From: an uncultured Muribaculaceae bacterium | GTDB lineage: Bacteria > Bacillota_I > Bacilli_A > RF39 > UBA660 | NCBI GenBank assembly: GCA_964575655.1 | Contig: CAZNQV010000002.1 | Location: 1-50,051, forward strand | Direction of reading: 5' to 3' | DNA: 50,051 nucleotides | Shown: positions 25,281-50,051 of the stretch, piece after piece | How the letters are laid out: each line of letters opens with the position of its first letter | Numbering within the stretch: the first letter of the stretch is position 1 | Notes under the pieces: model-generated | What the model was told of the DNA's origin: nothing | Databases searched by the model: none | The model's input: only the letters and a program-made list of their open reading frames with translations | Made by a program: the position numbers and the translations under genes

Positions 25281-25907
25281 ATGTTAAACGAAGGAAAGTC
25301 TAGACAAGTGCTACTATCAGTACTAGGTGTTGCAATTCTAGTAGTGGCAGTAGTAGGTATTTCGTATGCTGCATTTACAGTAGGAGGAACTGCAAACACT
25401 AATACTATTAGTACTGCAACTATTACTATGGCATATGCACAACCTACAAATGGTATTTACATTAATAATGCATTACCAATGGATGAAACTGCTGGTAAAG
25501 GACAAAATACTTGCACCAGTTCAACTGATTGTACTGTATTTGATTTTACTGTTACAGCTTCAGCTTCAGCAGCAGTTAATATACCATATACGATTAGTGT
25601 AACAGAAGTTTCTGGTAATACAATTCCTGATGCAAATGTTAGAGTTTATTTAACAAACATGAATGGTGATGCAGACACAGAAATTGTATATGATACTGTA
25701 GATCATTTGACTGCATATACTGGTCATAGCAGAACAAATTCTTATACTTTGACTACAGGTACATATGCAGTAGTTGCTGGAACACCTACTGTCAATGAAT
25801 ATCGTTTAAGAATGTGGTTAGATGCAGATTATGTTCCACCAACTGGAACAGCTGCAGTATATAAACTTCTTGTTAATGTAGATGCAGATGCTACACCATT
25901 ATCTTAA
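25281..25907 (+). CDS. Secreted Thr/Ala/Gly-rich protein with a SipW-class signal peptide, TasA-like module (paralogue 1)
   Basis: 208 aa with a perfect AAGGAGGT RBS. The signal anchor ends in 'VVGISYA|AFTVGG'. Module motifs: 'NTISTATITMAY', 'FDFTVTA', 'VRVYLT', 'EYRLRMWLDADY', 'YKLLVNVDA'. Confidence 0.75.
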   Translation: MLNEGKSRQVLLSVLGVAILVVAVVGISYAAFTVGGTANTNTISTATITMAYAQPTNGIYINNALPMDETAGKGQNTCTSSTDCTVFDFTVTASASAAVNIPYTISVTEVSGNTIPDANVRVYLTNMNGDADTEIVYDTVDHLTAYTGHSRTNSYTLTTGTYAVVAGTPTVNEYRLRMWLDADYVPPTGTAAVYKLLVNVDADATPLS

Positions 25908-25962
25908 TATTTTAGCCAATATTTATAATAATTTTTAAAATCTATAAAGGAGGAATAGTAAA

Positions 25963-26631
25963 TTGGAAAAGAATAATTCAAAGCAAATAGTGCTTTCAAT
26001 ATTAGCGGTAGTTGTATTAGTAATCGCTGTTGTTGGAGTATCATTCGCTATGTATACATTTAGTGGAACAGGTACTAAAGAAAATACAATTAATACTGCA
26101 ACTCTTAGTATTACATATAGTGAAGAAACATATATAAATCTTACAAATCAGTTTCCACAAGCAGATAGCCGCGGTTTTGCACTTGATCGTGAAACACCAG
26201 CTTCATCTACTGCAACTGCAGGAGCTGTATTAGAGTTTTCAGTACAATTAGCAACTAGTATACCAACTACTGTAAACTATGATGTTAACTTTGATGCTGT
26301 TGTTAATGGTACAACTTTAACAACTGATTATATTAAATTATATGTAACAACAGTTAGTGGTGCAACCGAAACCCCATACACAGGATTCGGAACTACTGGT
26401 TCACCTACTGCTAAACTTATGAATTTATATTATGATGTTGATCCAGCAGTAGATTTACCTATTATTGAAGGTACGTTTAGTGCAGAAGGAACACATACTT
26501 ATGTAATTCGTGCTTGGGTAAGTGATGCATATGATTTACCAACAACTGATAATACTTCTGGTGCTACAATTGGTAACACAACAACAACTGATACTATAAC
26601 ATTTAAGCTTAAAGTATCTGCAACAGACTAA
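25963..26631 (+). CDS. Secreted Thr/Ala/Gly-rich protein with a SipW-class signal peptide, TasA-like module (paralogue 2)
   Basis: 222 aa. TTG start 7 nt after AAAGGAGGA. 'VVGVSFA|MYTFSG', 'NTINTATLSITY', 'LEFSVQL', 'IKLYVT', 'HTYVIRAWVSDAY', 'FKLKVSAT'. Confidence 0.75.
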   Translation: MEKNNSKQIVLSILAVVVLVIAVVGVSFAMYTFSGTGTKENTINTATLSITYSEETYINLTNQFPQADSRGFALDRETPASSTATAGAVLEFSVQLATSIPTTVNYDVNFDAVVNGTTLTTDYIKLYVTTVSGATETPYTGFGTTGSPTAKLMNLYYDVDPAVDLPIIEGTFSAEGTHTYVIRAWVSDAYDLPTTDNTSGATIGNTTTTDTITFKLKVSATD

Positions 26632-26644
26632 TGAAGTATAAATT

Positions 26645-26671
26645 AGACTTATTTACATAAGTCTTTTTTTT
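26645..26671 (+). terminator. Rho-independent terminator after paralogue 2
   Basis: AGACTTA / TAAGTCT stem (7 bp), 6-nt loop, then T8. Confidence 0.8.
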
Positions 26672-26690
26672 ATGATATTTATGTTTATTT

Positions 26691-26719
26691 TTGATAATTT
26701 TTGTGATACTATTTATTAT
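26691..26719 (+). promoter_or_regulatory. Sigma-A-type promoter candidate for the LysM-paralogue/sipW operon
   Basis: TTGATA (26691-96), a 17-nt spacer, then TATTAT (26714-19). Confidence 0.5.
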
Positions 26720-26749
26720 AGAGAATACTATAGAAAGGGTGTATCATTT

Positions 26750-27517
26750 ATGTTTAGTAAAAAGAAAGATAATGATGATGATTATATAATTTATATTGTG
26801 CAAGAAAACGATACTCTTAATAGTATTGCTAATAAGTATGATGTGACAGTTAAATCAATTATGAAAATTAATGAATTAGAAGACGAAAATATTGTTGTTG
26901 GTCAGCAATTGTATATTGAAAGAACAAAAGATGCGATACCTATATTTTTATTAGTGCTTATGTTGTTAGCGTTAATTGCAGGAGCATCTTTTATTACATT
27001 TGCAATTACTGATTATTTTTCTAATCAAGGTGGCGGTGGACCTAATAATATTGATGTCGGAACTGTTATTTTTTCATTTAGTGAATCCGATAATGCGATT
27101 AGTATTGTTGATGCTTATCCAACATCTGATATGGTTGGTAAGACATTAAGTGGCGATGATCAATACTTTGATTTTACTGTATCTTTTCAATTTAGTGAAG
27201 AAGCAGAAAAAGTTGTTTATGAAATTAATTTAATTGAATCGGCTATTAGTGGAACAAAACTTGATCCTAAATTTGTTAAAGTTTATTTAGAAGAAAATGG
27301 AAGCGCAGCTACTGGTTTTACGAATACAGTACCATTATTTAGTGAATTGCAAGATAGCAAATATCGTCAAGACACGAAAGTTTTATATACTAAAGAGATT
27401 ACTACAACGCAAACCAATTCATATCGTTTTAGAATGTGGGTTGCTGAAGGATATAATGTTGATGAAGTAGTTAGAATATTTAAATGCTTAATTAATGTAG
27501 ATGGTTATGTAGAATAA
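26750..27517 (+). CDS. LysM domain, TM/signal anchor, then TasA-like module (paralogue 3)
   Basis: The ATG at 26750 is preceded by AAAGGGTG. LysM 'YIVQENDTLNSIANKYDVTVKSIMKINELEDENIVVGQQLYI'. Hydrophobic helix ending in 'GASFITFA|ITDYFS'. Module motifs 'NIDVGTVIFSF', 'FDFTVSF', 'VKVYLEE', 'NSYRFRMWVAEGY', 'FKCLINVDG'. Confidence 0.7.
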   Translation: MFSKKKDNDDDYIIYIVQENDTLNSIANKYDVTVKSIMKINELEDENIVVGQQLYIERTKDAIPIFLLVLMLLALIAGASFITFAITDYFSNQGGGGPNNIDVGTVIFSFSESDNAISIVDAYPTSDMVGKTLSGDDQYFDFTVSFQFSEEAEKVVYEINLIESAISGTKLDPKFVKVYLEENGSAATGFTNTVPLFSELQDSKYRQDTKVLYTKEITTTQTNSYRFRMWVAEGYNVDEVVRIFKCLINVDGYVE

Positions 27518-27530
27518 AAAGGGAGATTAT

Positions 27531-28223
27531 ATGAGAACAGTAAGGCTAATTTTCAAAATAATAGGCAAAGCAATAATGGCATTTTTGATTATTGTTATAG
27601 TTTGTTTGGCAGCATATGTAATTACAATTAAAGTGATGCAAAAAAAAGGGCAACTTGATAAATTGCCAATAAATATATATGTTATTCTTACGCAGAGCAT
27701 GCATCCAACAATAAAAGCAGGCGATATGATTGTTGATTATCGAAATCAAGATGGATTATATAATGTTGGAGATATTATTACCTTTGTATCAAGTGATAAA
27801 TTTAGTAATGGTGTTACTATAACTCACAGGATTGTTGAAATATTAGATTCTGGTGATAAGATAATGTATCGTACGAAAGGTGATAGTAACAGCACAGCCG
27901 ATCCGACACCTACGCCAAAGGAAAATGTAATAGGTAGAGTGCTATTTAAAATACCTAAAGTGGGATTCATACAACAGTTTTTAGTTACTAAAACTGGTTG
28001 GATAGTAGCAATTGTATTGCCTTGCATGGGAATAATTGTATTTGATATTGTAAAATTATTTACAAGAAGACCTAAAAAGATTAAAGTTGAACCAGAAAGG
28101 TCTGTTATTATTCAACCAAGTCTAGCACAGGAAGACACAGAGAAAACGAAAGAGATTATTGTGAAAAATGAAAATGTAGAAAGGGTTGAAGAGGATGAAG
28201 ACGATTTTTGGGGAATTAATTAG
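27531..28223 (+). CDS. sipW: Signal peptidase I, SipW (archaeal/ER Sec11) type
   Basis: 230 aa. N-terminal TM, 'ILTQSMHPTIKAGDMIV' (catalytic Ser box), 'ITHRIVE' (His box), 'YRTKGDSNSTADP'. A second TM is followed by a charged tail. The layout matches B. subtilis SipW. Confidence 0.85.
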   Translation: MRTVRLIFKIIGKAIMAFLIIVIVCLAAYVITIKVMQKKGQLDKLPINIYVILTQSMHPTIKAGDMIVDYRNQDGLYNVGDIITFVSSDKFSNGVTITHRIVEILDSGDKIMYRTKGDSNSTADPTPTPKENVIGRVLFKIPKVGFIQQFLVTKTGWIVAIVLPCMGIIVFDIVKLFTRRPKKIKVEPERSVIIQPSLAQEDTEKTKEIIVKNENVERVEEDEDDFWGIN

Positions 28224-28905
28224 AGAGATGATTAATTTGTTAGTAGGTGCGATGCTTGTTATCTGCCTATTAATGACGGGTTATTTAATATTTGCCAATA
28301 TTTATCATACAAAAGAAACGACTTATCGATATAATGTTGTTATTGCAGAAGATGAAACATATAAAACTTTTACTAATAGAGTTAATAGAATTGATGAATT
28401 AGTTTCAAAATATGATTACTCTAATATAGATAGTGGCTCTCAAAAACAATATTATGAAAACATTATTGCTATTATAAATAATTGTAATACCGCCTTTAAG
28501 TCTAGTAAGCTATATGCTTCTAACAATGTAACATCAGTTAGTACAAGAGATGTTTATGATTACTATGGATATTATAGTGGTACAATAATAAATAAATGTA
28601 TGGTAATGGAGATGACAAAACTAGATACTATAAATGAATTAAATAGTTTTAAAGATCCTTACTTTGATTCGGCAAAAGATTACATTAAGTTAACAAGGGA
28701 ACAGTTATCTAAAAATACTAGTTCTATGATATCAACATTATTTCAGAATAGTTCTTATTCATATATTACAGATGTTTCGAGGGATACAATATATAATCCA
28801 ACTAAAATGATGTTTTATCAAATGTTAAGTAATTATGATAGTTCTGCTAAATTAGTAGAAAAGTTAGCTGAATATATGGCGACTAAGTTAGGAGGGGTAG
28901 CATAA
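28195..28905 (+). CDS. Single-pass membrane protein, unknown function (sipW operon)
   Basis: About 236 aa. N-terminal TM 'INLLVGAMLVICLLMTGYLIFANIY', then a Tyr/Asn/Ser-rich, probably helical ectodomain. Overlaps the sipW 3' end. The start could be 28186 (TTG) or 28195 (ATG). Confidence 0.6.
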   Translation: MKTIFGELIREMINLLVGAMLVICLLMTGYLIFANIYHTKETTYRYNVVIAEDETYKTFTNRVNRIDELVSKYDYSNIDSGSQKQYYENIIAIINNCNTAFKSSKLYASNNVTSVSTRDVYDYYGYYSGTIINKCMVMEMTKLDTINELNSFKDPYFDSAKDYIKLTREQLSKNTSSMISTLFQNSSYSYITDVSRDTIYNPTKMMFYQMLSNYDSSAKLVEKLAEYMATKLGGVA

Positions 28906-37722: not shown

Positions 37723-40005
37723 ATGAAAGATAATCAAGAAAAAAATAGAATTGATGAATTACAAAACCAATTAGAAGAATTAGAAGATAAAGTGGCATAT
37801 GTAAAAGATGATGTTGCTGATTTAACTGCGGAAGAAGCAAGAGAGGACAAGGAAGAAGCTGCTAAAGCTGAGCTTGAGAAAAAGAAAAATGAGAAAAAAA
37901 GAAAGATAAAGCAGATTGTTTTAATTTCTTTAGGAATATTGGCTTTGATTATTATTGGGTTCTTGTTATATTATTTTGTATTGAAAGATAAAGGATGTTT
38001 TAAGTACAATGCCGAGGGTGTGATTAGTTCATATACTTGTAATGCCAAAGAAGTAATTATTCCATCTAAAATAGAAAACATTAAAATTACGAAGATAGAT
38101 AAAAATGTTTTTAAAGATAAAGGAATTACTAAGTTAATTTTAAATGATGATATTGTAGAAATTGGGGACTATGCTTTTGCCAATAATTTTCTGAAAGAAA
38201 TAGTCTTTCCTAAATCTATTACGAAAATAGGTGAAGGTGCTTTTGCTAATAATCAAATTGAAGAAGTGGTTATTCCAGAAGCTTTAACTGAGATAGCAAA
38301 TGAAACTTTTTCAAATAATAAAATTAGTAAAGTTATTTTTAATGAAAGTATACTAAATATCGGAAATAAAGCTTTTTTGGATAACAAATTAAATACTATT
38401 GAATTGCCTGTTTCACTTGTTTCAATTGGTAGTGAAGCATTTAAAAACAATGATTTGACAGTAGTTAATATACCAAAATATATAACTAAGATAGGTAGTA
38501 AAGCATTTTTGAAAGATAAACAATCTAATTCAAAATTGGCAGAAGTTTATAATTTAACAAGCAATACTTTTAATTGGGGTTTTATTATAAATGGTAAAAG
38601 TGGCTATGAGCAAGCAAGGGGAACTGTTGAAAATGCAGAAGGTGATGTTTCGGTAGTAGCATATACTAAAGCTGAATGTTTTGATTTTTCAAAAGGGATA
38701 ATTAATGGTTATAGTTGTAATGATAAAGTTGTTGTTATTCCACCAACTATTTCGAATGTGGCAGTTACTGCAATTAGTAAAAAAGCATTTGAAGGTGAGA
38801 GAATAACCTCAATTATTATTCCGGAAGGAGTTAAACAAATTGGGGATGAAGCATTTAATTATTGTACAAAACTAACATCAGTGTCATTGCCAGAAACATT
38901 AACTAAAATAGGTAAATATGCTTTTGAAAGCAGCGCACTTACGACTGTAGTGTTGCCTTCAAGTTTAGTAGAAATAAATGATGGTGCTTTTTCTGATAAT
39001 GCATTGACTACTATTACAATTCCAAATAAAGTTACAACAATTGGAGAGTATGCTTTTGCATATAATGACTTAAAACAAGTTGTTATCCCTAATAGTGTTA
39101 CAAAAATAGGTGATTGGGCCTTTTCTGACAATAAAATAGATACTTTAACATTGTCGAATAAATTAACTGTTTTAGGACGAGGAGCTTTTAATTTCAATGA
39201 TTTAACTACAGTTACAATTCCGGGAACAATTAAGACAGTGTATGATTCGTTTTATGAAAATCCACTGAAGACATTGGTGATTTCTAATGGTGTTACAACA
39301 ATAGAAGATGCAGCATTTGAAAGTTTAGAATTAACCTCATTAACATTGCCTAATAGTGTTACAAAAATAGGCGAAGGAGCTTTTGCAAATAATAAATTAA
39401 CGTCATTAGTATTACCTAATAAATTAGTGGTTTTGGAATCGAGAGCGTTTGTCAATAATTCAATAAAGCAAGTAACAATTCCTTCTAGCTTAAAGGTAAT
39501 TAGTTCTTCGGCATTTAATAATAACCGAATTACGACATTAGTAATTCCTAATGGAGTAACTAAAATTGATAAAGCAGCTTTCATTGGTAACCGAATTACG
39601 ACATTAACGATAGCAGGAAGTGTAAAAACAATAGAAGAAGATGCTTTCTTAGAAAATATGAGTTTATCATCGATAACCTTTAATGAGGGATTAGAAACGA
39701 TTGGCGCTAATGCATTTAATGGTAATGTAGTTAGGACATTAGTTTTACCACAAAGTTTAAAATCGATTGGTAATAGGGCATTTGAAGGGGCACTTATTAC
39801 AACCATTACGATTCCTGCTAATGTTACTAATATTGGTAGTGGTGCTTTAGGTTCTAATGGTACAATTACTTCAATTGTGAATAAAACGGGTGGTTCATTT
39901 GATTGGTATAAAATACTAACTGGTCAATCTAATGATTTATATCCTGCAGCGGTTACTGGTACTGTATTAATTAATGGAACTCAAACAGTTACAATAACAA
40001 ACTAG
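37723..40005 (+). CDS. Membrane-anchored BspA-type leucine-rich-repeat (LRR_5-like) surface protein
   Basis: 760 aa. Acidic coiled-coil N-terminus, a basic stretch, then TM 'IVLISLGILALIIIGFLLYYFVL'. More than 20 tandem units of about 22-25 aa follow, of the type 'I.IP.SVTKIG..AF..N.LT.V'. Confidence 0.8.
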   Translation: MKDNQEKNRIDELQNQLEELEDKVAYVKDDVADLTAEEAREDKEEAAKAELEKKKNEKKRKIKQIVLISLGILALIIIGFLLYYFVLKDKGCFKYNAEGVISSYTCNAKEVIIPSKIENIKITKIDKNVFKDKGITKLILNDDIVEIGDYAFANNFLKEIVFPKSITKIGEGAFANNQIEEVVIPEALTEIANETFSNNKISKVIFNESILNIGNKAFLDNKLNTIELPVSLVSIGSEAFKNNDLTVVNIPKYITKIGSKAFLKDKQSNSKLAEVYNLTSNTFNWGFIINGKSGYEQARGTVENAEGDVSVVAYTKAECFDFSKGIINGYSCNDKVVVIPPTISNVAVTAISKKAFEGERITSIIIPEGVKQIGDEAFNYCTKLTSVSLPETLTKIGKYAFESSALTTVVLPSSLVEINDGAFSDNALTTITIPNKVTTIGEYAFAYNDLKQVVIPNSVTKIGDWAFSDNKIDTLTLSNKLTVLGRGAFNFNDLTTVTIPGTIKTVYDSFYENPLKTLVISNGVTTIEDAAFESLELTSLTLPNSVTKIGEGAFANNKLTSLVLPNKLVVLESRAFVNNSIKQVTIPSSLKVISSSAFNNNRITTLVIPNGVTKIDKAAFIGNRITTLTIAGSVKTIEEDAFLENMSLSSITFNEGLETIGANAFNGNVVRTLVLPQSLKSIGNRAFEGALITTITIPANVTNIGSGALGSNGTITSIVNKTGGSFDWYKILTGQSNDLYPAAVTGTVLINGTQTVTITN

Positions 40006-46557: not shown

Positions 46558-48849
46558 ATGTTTTCAAAGTTTAGTGAAGAAGCAAAAAAAATATTAATTG
46601 AAGCAAAGAAAGAAATGCAGGAACTAAAACATCCTTATGTTGGTAGCGAGCATGTGATGTTAGCTTTATTAAAAGATAAAGATAACGAATATATTAATAA
46701 ATTAAAGAAGTATAAATTAAATTACAAGAGTTTTAAAGATGAGTTAATTAAGATAGTTGGAATTGGCAAAGAGGCGAGTTCTTTATTTTTGTATACACCT
46801 TTGTTGAAGAATGTGATTGCGAATGCAGTTTGTGACAGTGAAGATAAAGGTAAAGATATGGTTGATACCACTGATCTGTTGTTTGCAATATTCGATGAAG
46901 GTGATGGAGTTGCAATAAGAATCATTGCAGGGATGGGGATTAATATTGAAGACATATATAATGATTTGATAAATGATTTTGTTAAACCTAATAAAAAAGG
47001 TAAATTATATATTGATGGGTTTGGTATAGATTTGAATAAGAAGGTTCTGGATAATGAAATTGATCCAGTTGTAGGTAGAGAAAAAGAAATATTGCGCTTA
47101 ATGGAGGTATTAGGACGCAGAACGAAGAATAATCCATTATTATTGGGTGATGCTGGAGTTGGAAAAACGGCAATTGTTGAAGAATTGGCGCGACGAATAG
47201 TGGAAAATAGAGTTGGTAATGGCTTAAAAGGCAAGAGAATTGTTTCGGTTTCAATGGCTGGATTAGTTGCAGGGACTAAATATCGTGGTGAATTCGAAGA
47301 ACGAATTGGTAAAATAATTAGTGAATTAGAAAACAATAGCAATATTATTCTATTTATAGATGAGATTCATACTTTAGTTGGAGCTGGTGGAGCAGAGGGG
47401 GCAATTGATGCTTCAAATATTTTAAAACCGGCATTAGCTCGCGGAAAAATTAAAATTATTGGAGCTACTACGGTTGATGAATATAAAAAATACATTGCGG
47501 ATGATAAGGCGTTAGATAGAAGATTTCAAATTGTTGATATTGAAGAGCCTAGTCTTGAAGAAACAGAAAGCATTTTGTTAAAGCTAAAACCGATTTATGA
47601 AAGTTATCACCATGTTAGTATTAATAAACAGATAATTAAAGATATATTAACTTTATCAGATAAATATTTATATGATCGTAGGCGCCCAGATAAAGTAATT
47701 GATGTTTTAGATGAGGTATGCTCTAAAGTATCTATTTCACGAATTAGTGAAGAAAATGACTTAGAAAGATTAAATAGGGATTATTTATTGATAAAAAATT
47801 TAAAAAACAATGCTGTTATTAATAACGATTTTAAAGGAGCTGCAGTTTATAAAAAGCAGGAATTAGAAATTGAAGATAAGATAAATAAGTTAGAATTAGA
47901 ACAATATAAAAAGCAAAATGTTAAAATAGTTAGTAAAGAAGATGTATTAAGTGTAATTGAGTCAAAATCTAAAATACCAATATTTGATGGTAATTATGTA
48001 GAATCTATTAATAATATGAAAAAAAGTTTGAAAAAAAGTATTATTGGTCAAGATGAAACGATTAATAAACTGTGTGAGATTACTAAAATAATTAGAATGG
48101 GTATTCATAAAAACGGAAAGCCAATGTCAATATTATTGACAGGATCAACCGGAGTTGGTAAAACTTATTTAGCAAAAAAATATACAGAATTGTTACTTAA
48201 TAAAGATAATTTAATTAGATTAGATATGAGTGAATACAAAGAAGCACATAGTATTAGTAAAATAATTGGTTCACCACCGGGATATGTTGGTTATCAGGAA
48301 AACAAGAATATTTTAGAAGAGGTGAAAGATAAACCATATGCAGTTATTTTGCTTGATGAAATTGATAAGGCTCACAATGATATTTTACAATTGTTTCTAC
48401 AAATACTAGATGAGGGTAAAATAAAAAATTCTAAAGGTGAAATTGTTAGATTTGATCATAATACTATTATTATGACAGCGAATATAACTGGTAATAAATC
48501 AGTAGGTTTTGCTCATGATAAAACTTTGATGTTCGAAGATGATTTAAAAGAAAAAATAGGCTTAGAAATAATTAATCGTATCAATGTTATTCAACATATG
48601 AATGATTTAGGTGAAAGTGATATTAAAAAGATTGTTGAAAATAAGATTAAACAAATTATTAGCAAATATCATAACATTAAAATTAATATAGCAAATTCTA
48701 TTGTTGATGAAATAGTTTTATCAACTAAATATAATAAATTTGGAGCTAGACAAGTTGATAATCTGGTGGCAAATTATATAGAGAGTAAAATTGTTGATGC
48801 ACTTTTATTAGGAAATAATTATGTTGATATTGATATCTTAAAAGTATAA
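46558..48849 (+). CDS. clpC: ATP-dependent Clp protease ATP-binding subunit ClpC-type (class I AAA+)
   Basis: 763 aa. Clp_N repeat '[14 protein letters not shown]'. D1 Walker A '[12 protein letters not shown]'. D2 Walker A '[12 protein letters not shown]'. 'SPPGYVGY'. ClpP-docking-like 'SVGFA'. No ctsR/mcsA/mcsB upstream. Confidence 0.9.
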
Positions 48850-48873
48850 CACATTATTTTGTGTTAATTTTTT
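48847..48873 (+). terminator. Rho-independent terminator after clpC
   Basis: TAACAC / GTGTTA stem, 8-nt loop, then ATTTTTT. Confidence 0.55.
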
Positions 48874-48885
48874 CGTGATTAATAA

Positions 48886-48914
48886 TTGCATTAAACTCTT
48901 TAAAATGGTATGAT
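48886..48914 (+). promoter_or_regulatory. Sigma-A-type promoter candidate for the 48947 gene
   Basis: TTGCAT (48886-91), a 17-nt spacer, then TGgTATGAT (48906-14). Confidence 0.5.
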
Positions 48915-48946
48915 AATATCAAGATAATAGGTTTGGAGAATAGTTT

Positions 48947-50051
48947 ATGGCTAAGATGAAACAAACATTAATGAAACAAGTAAAAACTATTTATATATAC
49001 TATGTTGTGGTGATGGGATTAGTAATGTTGCTAGTCAATTTTTCATATGCAATATTTCAGGTTACTACTATGAGAAATGGTGCCTTATCTTTGATTACAC
49101 TAAGTAATTATGTAACAATTACCAGCAATATATCTGCTTTAACGACTACTGGGATAACAGTGCCGGCAAATAATACGGTTGTTGCTAAAGTAACTTTAGA
49201 AAATATTAGTAGCTTTGATTTAGCGTATCGTACTTTGTATGCTGGAAATGCAAATATAAGTGTGGCAGCGATGACAAATGGCTCAGATACACTGACTGGA
49301 ACATTAACAAAATACATTGGAAATGACGCTGATAAAGAATTAGTGTTAGTTATAAAAAACAATGGTTCAAGTAATACAACTGTAAGAATATTGAATGAAT
49401 TTGTGCAAAATGGTTCAAATTTCTCATCAATTCCAGATGGATTATATGCAATAACTAGTACAACTGCAAATGCTGAATATACATATACAGGTAGTTATCA
49501 GGAAATAACAATACCTAAGTCGGGATGGTATGAAATAGAAGCTTGGGGCGCCCAGGGTGGAGGAAATACGACAGGAGGAAAGGGCGGCTACACAGAAGGT
49601 AAGGTAGAATTACAGCAGGGGGAAAAATTATATATATATGTAGGTAATCAACCGGCAAGAACAGAAAATGCATATAATGGTGGTGGTGAGGCTAATAACA
49701 CTTATTATCCTACAGATGATGGTGGAGGAGCCACAGATATAAGATATTTCGGTGATACTAACCCTGACAGTGCAGATTTAACAGATGAATTATCCACTTT
49801 AGGGCTTAATTCAAGAATAATGGTTGCTGCAGGTGGCGGTGGTTTTGAAGCTGCTTCTGGTGGAGCACAAGGTGGCCATGGTGGAGGATTAACTGGTTCA
49901 AATGGTAGCTATACCGGTACTATTGGTTCTTATAAACCACCTACTGGTGGAACACAAATTAAAGGTGGAAATAAAGATACTAATACAAATTTTGTATCAG
50001 AAGATGGAGAATTTGGAAAAGGTGGAAATGGTGAACCAGAATATGGTGGCG
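48947..50051 (+). CDS. SipW-class signal peptide, N-terminal module, then ALK/LTK-type glycine-rich domain (second paralogue, 3'-truncated by the window end)
   Basis: Missing from the ORF track because it has no stop codon within the window. My own translation from the ATG at 48947 (GGAGAA RBS): 'MAKMKQTLMKQVKTIYIYYVVVMGLVMLLVNFSYA|IFQVTT...EYTYTGSYQEITIPKSGWYEIEAWGAQGGG...GEKLYIYVGNQ...DDGGGATDIRYFG...LGLNSRIMVAAGGGGFE...'. It stays open to base 50051. Confidence 0.8.
   Translation, partial: MAKMKQTLMKQVKTIYIYYVVVMGLVMLLVNFSYAIFQVTTMRNGALSLITLSNYVTITSNISALTTTGITVPANNTVVAKVTLENISSFDLAYRTLYAGNANISVAAMTNGSDTLTGTLTKYIGNDADKELVLVIKNNGSSNTTVRILNEFVQNGSNFSSIPDGLYAITSTTANAEYTYTGSYQEITIPKSGWYEIEAWGAQGGGNTTGGKGGYTEGKVELQQGEKLYIYVGNQPARTENAYNGGGEANNTYYPTDDGGGATDIRYFGDTNPDSADLTDELSTLGLNSRIMVAAGGGGFEAASGGAQGGHGGGLTGSNGSYTGTIGSYKPPTGGTQIKGGNKDTNTNFVSEDGEFGKGGNGEPEYGG

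What the first reader, a model, noticed from the sequence alone, without database searches (positions are those of the whole stretch)
48947..50051. Second glycine-rich-domain paralogue hidden from the ORF track (runs off the window end)
**How it was found**
- An ATG at 48947 lies downstream of a clpC terminator and a TTGCAT-17-TATGAT promoter, with a GGAGAA RBS.
- It opens a reading frame that stays open to base 50051, so a stop-to-stop ORF caller misses it. Only an 84-aa antisense shadow (49108..49362) is listed there.

**What it encodes**
- A signal anchor ending in 'NFSYA|IFQVTT'.
- An N-terminal beta-rich region of about 170 aa ('VVAKVTLENISSFDLAY', 'ELVLVIKNNGSSNTTVRIL').
- From about nt 49475, a glycine-rich domain collinear with the 31290 protein: 'YTGSYQEITIPKSGWYEIEAWGAQGGG', 'GEKLYIYVGNQ', 'DDGGGATDIRYFG', 'STLGLNSRIMVAAGGGG'.

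**Significance**
- The two genes are clearly homologous but well diverged at the nucleotide level, so this is an old duplication and not an assembly artefact.
- The N-terminal module here is much less similar to the sipW-locus module. That suggests modular swapping of stalk domains under one kind of head domain.
Basis: seen in the sequence. Interest (0 to 1): 0.6.

Follow-up and report, generated by a model that had tools for sequence, protein, structure and literature searches.

The report
Cut-off gene for ALK-like surface protein
The window ends inside a real gene for a large secreted surface protein that carries a bacterial version of the glycine-rich ligand-binding domain of the human ALK receptor; it is one of about six such genes in this small gut-type genome, so it is a sound annotation catch but not a new kind of system.

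Summary
ATG 48947 opens a frame with no stop up to base 50050. The window is the whole contig, so the gene is cut by the end of the assembly.

- **What it encodes.** The 368 residues are a signal or anchor ending in SYA|IFQ, a roughly 115-aa Ig-like sandwich, and the first two thirds of a PF12810 ALK/LTK glycine-rich (TNF-like + GRD) domain (101 bits, profile positions 6-166 of 243). Foldseek's top 21 hits are ALK/LTK structures.
- **Relation to 31290.** It is homologous to the 31290 protein only in the GRD (38% aa; 73% nt over 130 nt). The two GRDs lie in different subfamilies.
- **Copy number.** The genome holds six GRD-bearing ORFs or fragments, several of them at contig ends.
- **Missing 3' end.** Contig C52 (reverse complement) is the probable continuation (about 70%). 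That would leave about 13 unassembled poly-Gly residues, followed by discoidin-like, CBM-like and Big_3 domains and a second discoidin domain, for roughly 1,275 aa in total. A same-genus orthologue of 803 aa lies directly after clpC and is collinear with both pieces.
- **Module swapping.** This is supported. The closest GRD relative has a pilin-type N-terminus, and paralogues C32 and C62 share a near-identical head on unrelated N-terminal halves.
- **Function.** Binding is inferred, not shown.
- **Weak points.** The promoter and terminator calls are weak. SipW dependence is unproven.

The parts
48840..48873 (+). AT-rich hairpin plus U-run that overlaps the clpC stop codon (48847-48849). It is a possible weak intrinsic terminator.
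   Evidence: The RNA fold gives -9.1 kcal/mol with z = -1.84. The terminator scan did not list it, because the stem has fewer than 3 G-C pairs.
48886..48914 (+). Candidate sigma-70-type promoter: TTGCAT, a 17-nt spacer, then TGG-TATGAT (an extended -10).
   Evidence: Read directly from the sequence. The promoter scan did not list it, because the -35 hexamer matches only 3 of 6 positions.
48935..48940 (+). Shine-Dalgarno GGAGAA, 8 nt upstream of the ATG.
   Evidence: Read directly from the sequence.
48947..50051 (+). 5' part (368 codons plus 1 base) of the GRD surface-protein gene. It is cut by the contig end.
48947..49051 (+). N-terminal signal peptide or signal anchor (residues 1-35). It has a Lys-rich n-region, a 17-residue hydrophobic core and the junction S-Y-A|I-F-Q.
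   Evidence: Sequence. hhalign aligns the signal, the junction and the first strand to the sipW-cluster proteins at probability 93.7%, E 1.9e-7. A TM helix followed by S[YF]A-x-[FYIL] is found in only 5 other ORFs in the genome. The TIGR04088 model does not hit it.
49106..49414 (+). Ig-like beta-sandwich N-module (about residues 54-156).
   Evidence: The AF2 models have pLDDT of about 85 in this region. Foldseek returns only generic PapD/MSP/Ig-like sandwiches at E about 1e-2, and no TasA. The module is 36% identical to the N-module of P0002 and G001 and 39% identical to the pre-GRD module of C62.
49472..50050 (+). First two thirds of the ALK/LTK-type TNF-like + glycine-rich (TG) domain (residues 176-368, 24% Gly).
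   Evidence: PF12810 scores 101 bits over profile positions 6-166 of 243. A profile search of PDB gives ALK at 8e-5. The Foldseek top 21 are all ALK/LTK TG/GRD structures. Glycine fraction.
31290..32939 (+). Complete in-window GRD paralogue of 549 aa. It belongs to a different GRD subfamily and clusters with C32 and C62.
27531..28223 (+). SipW/archaeal-type signal peptidase I. It is a candidate processing enzyme for the SYA|xF junction class, but this is only an inference.
   Evidence: TIGR02228 at 1e-29 and NF046067 at 1.5e-29. The genome also has at least 3 other SipW-type and 2 bacterial-type SPase I genes.
46558..48849 (+). Upstream ClpC-type AAA+ ATPase gene. It serves as a synteny anchor: the orthologous GRD genes in G001 and in GCA_964453505.1 also lie directly after clpC.

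Best explanation
Bases 48947-50051 are the 5' end of an intact gene for a large secreted, multidomain cell-surface protein.

**What the window encodes.**
- A Sec-type signal peptide or anchor with an S-Y-A|I-F junction.
- One Ig-like sandwich that acts as a stalk.
- A TNF-like/polyglycine 'TG' head of the ALK/LTK type (PF12810).

**Where the rest probably is.** The contig breaks inside the low-complexity poly-Gly coding run of that head. The most likely continuation is contig C52 read in reverse complement. About 13 residues (roughly GGGGSGYYGGGGG) would be missing between the two. C52 then supplies the end of the GRD, a discoidin-like domain, a CBM-like jelly roll, a Big_3 domain and a C-terminal F5/8 type C domain, followed by a stop and then secE-nusG-rplK-rplA. 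The full protein would be about 1,275 aa.

**Inferred mechanism.** After export, the protein displays the GRD head and its lectin-like domains as binding modules for a surface ligand, such as host or microbial glycans or proteins. In this lineage the head is a swappable cassette, mounted on different N-terminal carriers and homogenised between paralogues by recombination.

**Shown versus inferred.** Shown: the gene is real, the domain identities, the paralogy, the synteny with clpC and the mosaicism. Inferred: the contig join, signal cleavage and any role of SipW, and the binding function.
For: **The gene and its domain.**
- The frame is open and chance is excluded.
- PF12810 scores far above its cut-off.
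- A profile search of PDB matches ALK at 8e-5.
- The AF2 model has pLDDT 75.7, and the Foldseek top 21 are all ALK/LTK TG domains.

**Orthologue.** In same-genus genome G001 a complete 803-aa gene lies directly downstream of clpC. The same clpC-GRD order is seen in GCA_964453505.1. The G001 protein aligns P0001 residues 3-293 to its residues 8-305, and C52 residues 4-393 to its residues 403-796 (43.5% identity, 282 bits, its best match in the genome).

**The join to C52.**
- P0001 ends in GNGEPEYGG, and C52(rc) starts with ANMSHVSSGAGGSSYISG.
- Among 120 homologues, the string GNGE..YGG-GGGGSGYYGGGGGGN..HV[SA][ST]G[AG]GGSS occurs only in the 11-member GRD clade that contains P0001.
- C2 is the only contig end with an open Gly-rich frame.
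- C52 is the only GRD fragment that starts within the domain, at profile position 186.

**C52 domains.** F5_F8_type_C and Big_3. The discoidin-like stretch is 55% identical to G001.

**Binding-head inference.**
- The TNF-like + GRD of phage Pam3 tail fibre gp24 is the receptor-binding tip and resembles C. elegans ALK structure 7LIR (PMC9608196).
- By N-terminal motif scan, 24 of the 121 proteins scanned (120 homologues plus P0001) have SipW-like junctions and 23 have pilin-type N-termini. About 26 more look pilin-like by eye.

**Head swapping.**
Against: **The join is not proven.**
- The contig ends share no k-mer overlap.
- No public contig spans the gap.
- Every database member of P0001's GRD clade has the 'long-form' GRD end (ISGH.GC..., MIDG.GY.W...). 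C52 has the 'short-form' end (ISGYAGVN...HYSGKYFID), as in G001, P0002 and P0032. The joined GRD would therefore be a mosaic.
- Contig C82(rc) starts with a long-form GRD end and is an alternative partner, though its motif is not specific to any clade.
- Gene order upstream of secE-nusG is not conserved among relatives, so synteny does not help.

**Function and processing are untested.**
- No ligand is known for any bacterial PF12810 protein. No paper on them was found.
- The curated SipW-cognate signal model TIGR04088 does not hit this protein.
- The genome also has two ordinary SPase I genes.
- No C-terminal wall anchor is seen on C52, so how the protein is retained on the cell is unknown.
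Confidence: 0.6

Rival explanations
1. The gene is a shorter GRD protein whose 3' end is not C52. Either it ends soon after the GRD, like the 549-aa 31290 protein and the 430-480-aa clade relatives P0003, P0007 and P0008, or it continues on C82(rc). C82(rc) carries the end of a long-form GRD, an Ig-like domain, a second GRD and a stop. In this reading C52 is the 3' part of a different gene whose 5' end is unassembled.
For: All members of P0001's GRD clade have long-form ends and lack a following discoidin domain. C82(rc) begins with a long-form end, YDGTGNMTGNAGDGYARITF. The MAG is only 88% complete and has 113 contigs. There is no sequence overlap between C2 and C52.
Against: The long-form end motif occurs in many clades and so is not diagnostic. 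The HVSSGAGGSS motif at the start of C52 is specific to the clade. The clpC-adjacent orthologue in G001 has exactly the post-GRD domains seen on C52. A C82 join would need about 95 unassembled residues, against about 13 for C52. C82 could equally continue C32 or C62, because G002:C81 shows a GRD-discoidin-GRD architecture.
Confidence: 0.25
2. The protein is a dedicated SipW substrate that is built into, or caps, the TasA-superfamily fibre encoded at 25281-29372. After cleavage at SYA|IF, its new N-terminal strand would serve as a donor strand, making the GRD a fibre-tip adhesin.
For: The signal, the junction and the first strand align with those of the sipW-cluster proteins. The junction class is rare in the genome, and 3 of its 6 members carry GRDs. 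A SipW-type peptidase lies 21 kb upstream. TasA-superfamily loci use a dedicated TIGR02228 peptidase and donor-strand complementation, and Tafi loci include tip adhesins (bioRxiv 10.64898/2026.01.04.697558).
Against: Beyond the first 51 columns the N-module does not align to the TasA-like module. Foldseek gives generic Ig-like folds and no TasA. TIGR04088 does not hit the protein. The gene is not in the sipW cluster and has its own syntenic place after clpC in relatives. The genome has 2 ordinary and at least 4 SipW-type peptidases, so no assignment can be made.
Confidence: 0.12
3. It is a decaying pseudogene fragment, an assembly chimera or a phage tail-fibre remnant, and not a functional cellular gene.
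For: The frame cannot be followed to a stop within the contig. Database homologues P0004 and P0070 show frameshifts inside the poly-Gly run. GRD tips occur in phage tail fibres.
Against: There are 368 open codons where about 9% of random codons would be stops. An RBS and start context are present. The position after clpC is conserved in two other genomes. No phage genes are nearby. The candidate continuation is open for a further 892 codons.
Confidence: 0.03

Closest known systems
Extracellular TNF-like + glycine-rich ('TG') domain of ALK/LTK receptor tyrosine kinases (Pfam PF12810; PDB 7N00, 7NX1, 7LRZ, 7LIR)
   Same: The sequence matches the family above threshold. A profile search hits ALK chains. 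The predicted fold matches ALK/LTK TG structures as the top 21 Foldseek hits. It has the conserved W-G-A-x-G-G, NGGG, GGGATD and SRIMVAGGGGG blocks.
   Different: The protein is bacterial. It has no kinase, no EGF-like module and no ALKAL-type ligand. The domain is embedded in a secreted multidomain protein. Identity to ALK is only about 23-26%. The last third of the domain lies outside the window.
Uncharacterised bacterial PF12810 proteins of small-genome Bacilli, for example P0002 (GCA_964453505.1), the G001 803-aa orthologue and P0003
   Same: P0002 and G001 share the N-module, the GRD and the discoidin architecture, and both follow clpC. The GRD is 60-63% identical to that of P0003. The family is present in 27 of 60 other genomes of the same taxonomic family.
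   Different: No database protein is closer than 43% overall. Compared with the syntenic orthologue, this copy has a head from a different subfamily. If the C52 join is right, it also has about 470 extra C-terminal residues (Big_3 and a second discoidin domain).
Tail fibre gp24 of myocyanophage Pam3 and adhesin gp38 of Salmonella phage S16 (PDB 6F45), which are polyglycine-rich receptor-binding tips
   Same: Both have a TNF-like sandwich with polyglycine loops forming a distal binding head. Pam3 gp24 superposes on ALK structure 7LIR (PMC9608196).
   Different: There is no N-terminal trimerising helical shaft, no chaperone gene and no prophage context. The resemblance is by way of ALK and was not tested directly here.
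The 31290..32939 protein of the same window (SipW-class signal + TasA-like module + GRD)
   Same: It has the same kind of signal junction and the same domain family at the C-terminal side.
   Different: GRD identity is only 38-42%, and the two lie in different GRD clades. The N-modules are unrelated. The 31290 protein ends after a long-form GRD, whereas this gene probably continues.

Membership tests
PF12810 ALK_LTK_GRD | Match to the Pfam HMM above the gathering score | tested here: met
   101.1 bits against a cut-off of 24.5, E 1.3e-28, residues 191-364. Also found by the genome search.
PF12810 ALK_LTK_GRD | TNF-like beta-sandwich with inserted polyglycine loops (the TG fold) | tested here: met
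   The AF2 model has pLDDT 75.7. The Foldseek top 21 PDB hits are all ALK/LTK TG/GRD, probability 1.00, E 1e-3 to 2e-2. TM-scores are low because the model has two domains and is truncated.
PF12810 ALK_LTK_GRD | Complete domain, including the C-terminal third (profile positions 167-243) | tested here: inconclusive
   The window stops at profile position 166. A fragment covering positions 186-242 sits at the end of contig C52. The join is supported by motif and orthologue collinearity but is not physically shown.
PF12810 ALK_LTK_GRD | Ligand-binding function | not testable with these tools
   No experimental data exist for bacterial members. No relevant paper was found.
SipW-cognate signal peptide class (NCBIfam TIGR04088) | Match to the TIGR04088 model | tested here: not met
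   A genome-wide search at E <= 10 hits only C65:951-1043 and C6, and nothing in the window. An ncbifam scan of P0001 returned no family.
SipW-cognate signal peptide class (NCBIfam TIGR04088) | The signal, the junction and the first strand resemble those of proteins encoded beside a SipW-type peptidase | tested here: met
   hhalign probability 93.7%, E 1.9e-7 over 51 columns against the 25281/25963/31290-type set. The junction is rare across the genome. Compositional bias of TM helices may inflate the score.
TasA superfamily fibre subunit | TasA-like jelly-roll core able to polymerise by donor-strand complementation | tested here: not met
   The N-module has no Pfam or NCBIfam hit. hhalign finds no alignment beyond column 51. 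Foldseek on the N-module model gives generic Ig/PapD/MSP folds and no TasA or Abp entries in the top 50.
Type IV pilin-like (prepilin N-terminus, PF07963) | G-[FY]-T-L-x-E cleavage/methylation motif at the N-terminus | tested here: not met
   The motif is absent from P0001. It is present in the GRD relatives P0003 and P0012 and in paralogue C62.
Phage tail-fibre receptor-binding tip | Phage structural-gene context and an N-terminal trimerising shaft | tested here: not met
   The neighbours are clpC and an amino-acid transporter-like gene. The locus is syntenic in relatives. The N-terminus is a signal peptide followed by an Ig-like domain.

The most novel reading that the evidence does not exclude
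In these reduced-genome Bacilli, the ALK-type glycine-rich head is an interchangeable receptor-binding cassette. Recombination moves it between at least three display systems: SipW/TasA-type fibres, type IV pilin-like proteins and Ig-stalked giant adhesins. It diversifies in the way phage tail-fibre tips do. The clpC-adjacent gene would then be a hot spot where the head was replaced while the stalk and the lectin tail were kept. This would make the bacterial GRD family the prokaryotic source and functional analogue of the metazoan ALK/LTK ligand-binding domain.
Probability: 0.25. Interest if true: 0.6.

Novelty: new member of a known kind. Interest (0 to 1): 0.35.

Why it matters
**For annotation.** A real gene, probably about 1,275 aa, is lost when ORFs are called stop to stop. 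The contig breaks of this MAG coincide with paralogous GRD genes, so surface-protein content is systematically under-called in such assemblies.

**For biology.** Bacterial PF12810 proteins are abundant. More than 1,000 relatives were found, and the family is present in 27 of 60 other genomes of the same taxonomic family, with up to 21 matches in one genome. None has a known function. This genome gives a compact, testable set: one head type on three different N-terminal carriers, with evidence of recent head exchange. That set could be used to ask what the ALK-like glycine-rich fold binds in bacteria. The finding itself is an additional family member, not a new system.

Tried and rejected
1. 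**Contig-end overlaps.** Exact overlaps of 21-127 nt between the window end and any contig end of the genome: none found.
3. **Public metagenome contigs.** An exact 26-mer from the window end gave 0 hits. A protein-guided scan gave only distant relatives at 34-43% identity. The 5.8-billion-protein search found nothing closer than 43%.
4. **Synteny test of the C2-to-C52 join.** The genes downstream of the G001 orthologue (cysS, mrnC, rlmB, sigH) lie mid-contig on C6 next to dnaA in this genome. The region upstream of secE-nusG differs in each of five relatives. The test is uninformative.
5. **C82 as the partner.** Considered, but its long-form end motif is not clade-specific. It is kept as a minority rival.
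6. **TasA-like nature of the N-module.** Rejected on hhalign and Foldseek results.
7. **TIGR04088.** No hit.
9. **Literature on bacterial PF12810 proteins.** Nothing relevant was found.
10. **Earlier findings by sequence.** Nothing was returned.
Full report
**Observation.** The window is the whole of contig C2 of a 966-kb, 113-contig, 28.5% GC genome bin that is 88% complete. From ATG 48947 a frame stays open to 50050 (368 codons). With this base composition about 9% of random codons are stops, so an open run of this length has a chance probability of about 2e-16. A GGAGAA Shine-Dalgarno sequence lies 8 nt upstream. The only stop-to-stop ORF in the region is the 84-aa antisense frame at 49108..49362. 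The gene is 'hidden' only because the contig ends inside it.

**Upstream signals.** The consensus scan did not list it, because the -35 hexamer matches only 3 of 6 positions, and it found no terminator. An AT-rich hairpin with a U-run overlaps the clpC stop codon and folds at -9.1 kcal/mol (z = -1.8). These signals are plausible but weak.

**What the 368 residues are.**
- Pfam PF12810 (ALK_LTK_GRD) matches residues 191-364 at 101 bits against a cut-off of 24.5. The match covers only profile positions 6-166 of 243.
- A profile built from 31 homologues hits ALK and LTK chains in PDB at 8e-5.
- An AlphaFold2 model (pLDDT 75.7) gives ALK/LTK TG/GRD structures as the top 21 Foldseek hits.
- Residues 176-368 are 24% glycine.
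- Residues 1-35 form a Lys-rich n-region, a hydrophobic core and an S-Y-A|I-F-Q junction.
- Residues of about 54-156 form a confident beta-sandwich. Modelled alone (pLDDT 77), it matches only generic Ig-like, PapD-like and MSP-like folds at E about 1e-2, with no TasA-type entry in the top 50.

**Relation to the 31290 protein and to the sipW cluster.**
- BLASTP finds similarity to the 31290 protein only in the GRD: 38% over 226 columns, E 1e-23.
- At nucleotide level the two GRDs share one 130-nt stretch at 73%. This is not an assembly duplicate.
- A profile-profile comparison was made between this N-module family (A2) and the TasA-like module family of the sipW cluster (A3). It aligns only the signal peptide, the junction and the first strand: 51 columns, probability 93.7%, E 1.9e-7.
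- A transmembrane stretch followed by S[YF]A-x-[FYIL] occurs in only five other ORFs of the genome. Three are in the sipW region of this window, and one is the GRD gene on C32.
- The curated SipW-cognate signal model TIGR04088 hits none of them.
- The genome has two ordinary SPase I genes and at least four SipW/archaeal-type ones.
- SipW processing is therefore a reasonable inference but is not established.

**How many GRD genes.** PF12810 matches six places in the genome:
- C2:31290, complete, 549 aa.
- C2:48947, cut at its 3' end.
- C32, 782 aa, cut at its 3' end.
- C62, 702 aa, cut at its 3' end, with a prepilin-type N-terminus.
- C82 minus strand, cut at its 5' end. It carries the end of one GRD, an Ig-like domain and a second GRD.
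- C52 minus strand, cut at its 5' end, starting at profile position 186.

A maximum-likelihood tree of 113 GRD segments places 31290, C32 and C62 in a tight clade (79% aa identity; SH-aLRT 100). The 48947 GRD sits in a separate 11-member clade (SH-aLRT 95) together with P0003 (63% identity), P0007, P0008 and P0011. The two window copies are therefore members of different subfamilies. A simple 'old duplication' in this lineage is not demonstrated.

**The missing 3' end: evidence for C52.**
- The same-genus genome G001 has a complete 803-aa gene directly after clpC. A second assembly, GCA_964453505.1, shows the same clpC-GRD order.
- The G001 protein aligns P0001 residues 3-293 to its residues 8-305. 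It aligns the C52 fragment, residues 4-393, to its residues 403-796 at 43.5% identity and 282 bits, which is its best match in the genome.
- P0001 ends in ...GKGGNGEPEYGG, and C52 read in reverse complement begins with ANMSHVSSGAGGSSYISG.
- In six members of P0001's GRD clade, and in no homologue outside it, the same region reads GNGE..YGG-GGGGSGYYGGGGGGN..HV[SA][ST]G[AG]GGSS. That implies a gap of about 13 residues in a poly-Gly coding run.
- C2 is the only contig end with an open Gly-rich frame.
- The first 75 nt of C52 include 50 nt that are 94% identical to C32. Both ends therefore abut repeated sequence, which explains the break.
- The C52 fragment is open for 892 codons. It carries the GRD end, a discoidin-like domain (55% identical to G001), a CBM-like domain, Big_3 (residues 485-551) and F5_F8_type_C (residues 740-873). 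A stop follows, then secE-nusG-rplK-rplA.

**The missing 3' end: evidence against C52.**
- There is no sequence overlap between the contig ends.
- No public contig spans the gap.
- All database members of P0001's clade have the long-form GRD end, while C52 has the short form seen in G001, P0002 and P0032.
- C82 starts with a long-form end, although that motif occurs in many clades.
- Synteny around secE-nusG is not conserved among relatives and cannot decide the matter.

I put the C52 join at about 70%.

1. The N-module is closest to P0002 and G001 (36% identity), whose GRD is only 48% identical. The closest GRD (60-63% identity) sits in P0003, which has a prepilin-type N-terminus.
2. By motif scan, 24 of the 121 proteins scanned (120 GRD homologues plus P0001) have SipW-like junctions and 23 have pilin-type N-termini. 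About 26 more are pilin-like by eye.
3. Within this genome, C32 and C62 have unrelated N-terminal halves. C32 has a SipW-like signal, a TasA-like module and Ig domains. C62 has a prepilin-like N-terminus and an Ig module 39% identical to that of P0001. From the first GRD residue onward the two are 88% identical at nucleotide level, with about 360 nt at 99-100%. This indicates recent recombination.

**Function.** No bacterial PF12810 protein has a described function in the literature searched. The nearest functional analogues are two:
- the ligand-binding TG domain of ALK/LTK;
- the TNF-like + glycine-rich receptor-binding tip of phage Pam3 tail fibre gp24, which superposes on C. elegans ALK (PMC9608196).

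If the join holds, the domain company is discoidin, CBM-like and Big_3. Together with the N-terminal export signal, that makes a displayed binding or adhesion role the most likely one. This is inference.

**Distribution.** PF12810 is found in 27 of 60 other genomes of the same taxonomic family, with 1-21 matches per genome, and also inside giant ORFs of 3,100-5,479 aa. It is found in none of 14 control genomes. It is thus a common, expandable surface module of this lineage.

**Verdict.** This is a real, correctly interpreted extra member of a known but uncharacterised family. Its value lies mainly in annotation and in a clear in-genome example of head-cassette exchange. Earlier notes of this scan on the 31290 protein and on the shared junction agree with what I tested. 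They were used as leads only.

Noticed in passing
G000:C32:7470-9816 (+) and G000:C62:1553-3659 (+): Two GRD + discoidin genes have unrelated N-terminal halves. C32 has a SipW-like signal and a TasA-like module, and C62 has a prepilin-like N-terminus. From the start of the GRD onward they are 88% identical at nucleotide level, including about 360 nt at 99-100%. Both contigs end at the same residue. This indicates recent gene conversion and explains the fragmented assembly.
   Followed up: partly
G000: C2:27561-28049, C3:9738-10094, C57:818-1180, C1:43597-44061, C9:2909-3301, C7:5792-6232, C41:62-472: A genome of about 1 Mb carries at least four SipW/archaeal-type signal peptidase I genes, plus one copy on C9 with three in-frame stops, and two bacterial-type genes. 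This suggests several separate fibre or secretion clusters.
   Followed up: no
Database homologues P0004 and P0070 (alignment A1, columns 840-900): Both read ...YGGGRSWCWILWRRPEV or ...GGGGRRRL..WRWPEV, which is a frameshift inside the GGN poly-Gly run. This is exactly where contig C2 breaks. The run is prone to errors or slippage.
   Followed up: no
Relatives G013, G045, G056, G064 (same family): G013 has 21 PF12810 matches. Other relatives carry GRDs as repeated modules inside giant ORFs of 2,765-5,479 aa.
   Followed up: no
G000:C82:862-2031 (-): A 5'-cut ORF carries the last 20 residues of one GRD, a Bact_surface_Ig-like domain and a second complete GRD before its stop. This is a tandem-GRD architecture, also seen as GRD-discoidin-GRD in G002:C81.
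   Followed up: partly
window 37723-40005 (+): A 760-aa protein has an N-terminal anchor and many leucine-rich repeats of the BspA type. It is another large surface protein in the same window.
   Followed up: no
G000:C6:4552-8572 versus G001:C1 (L024): The block of a 223-aa gene plus mrnC-rlmB-sigH-yvcK-whiA follows the GRD gene and cysS in G001. In this genome it sits next to dnaA. The chromosome has been rearranged with a breakpoint at the 3' side of the clpC-adjacent GRD gene.
   Followed up: partly
G000:C65:951-1043 (+): This is the only place in the genome that matches the curated SipW-cognate signal model TIGR04088 above its cut-off (24.9 bits). It lies in a 397-aa ORF that was not examined further.
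   Followed up: no
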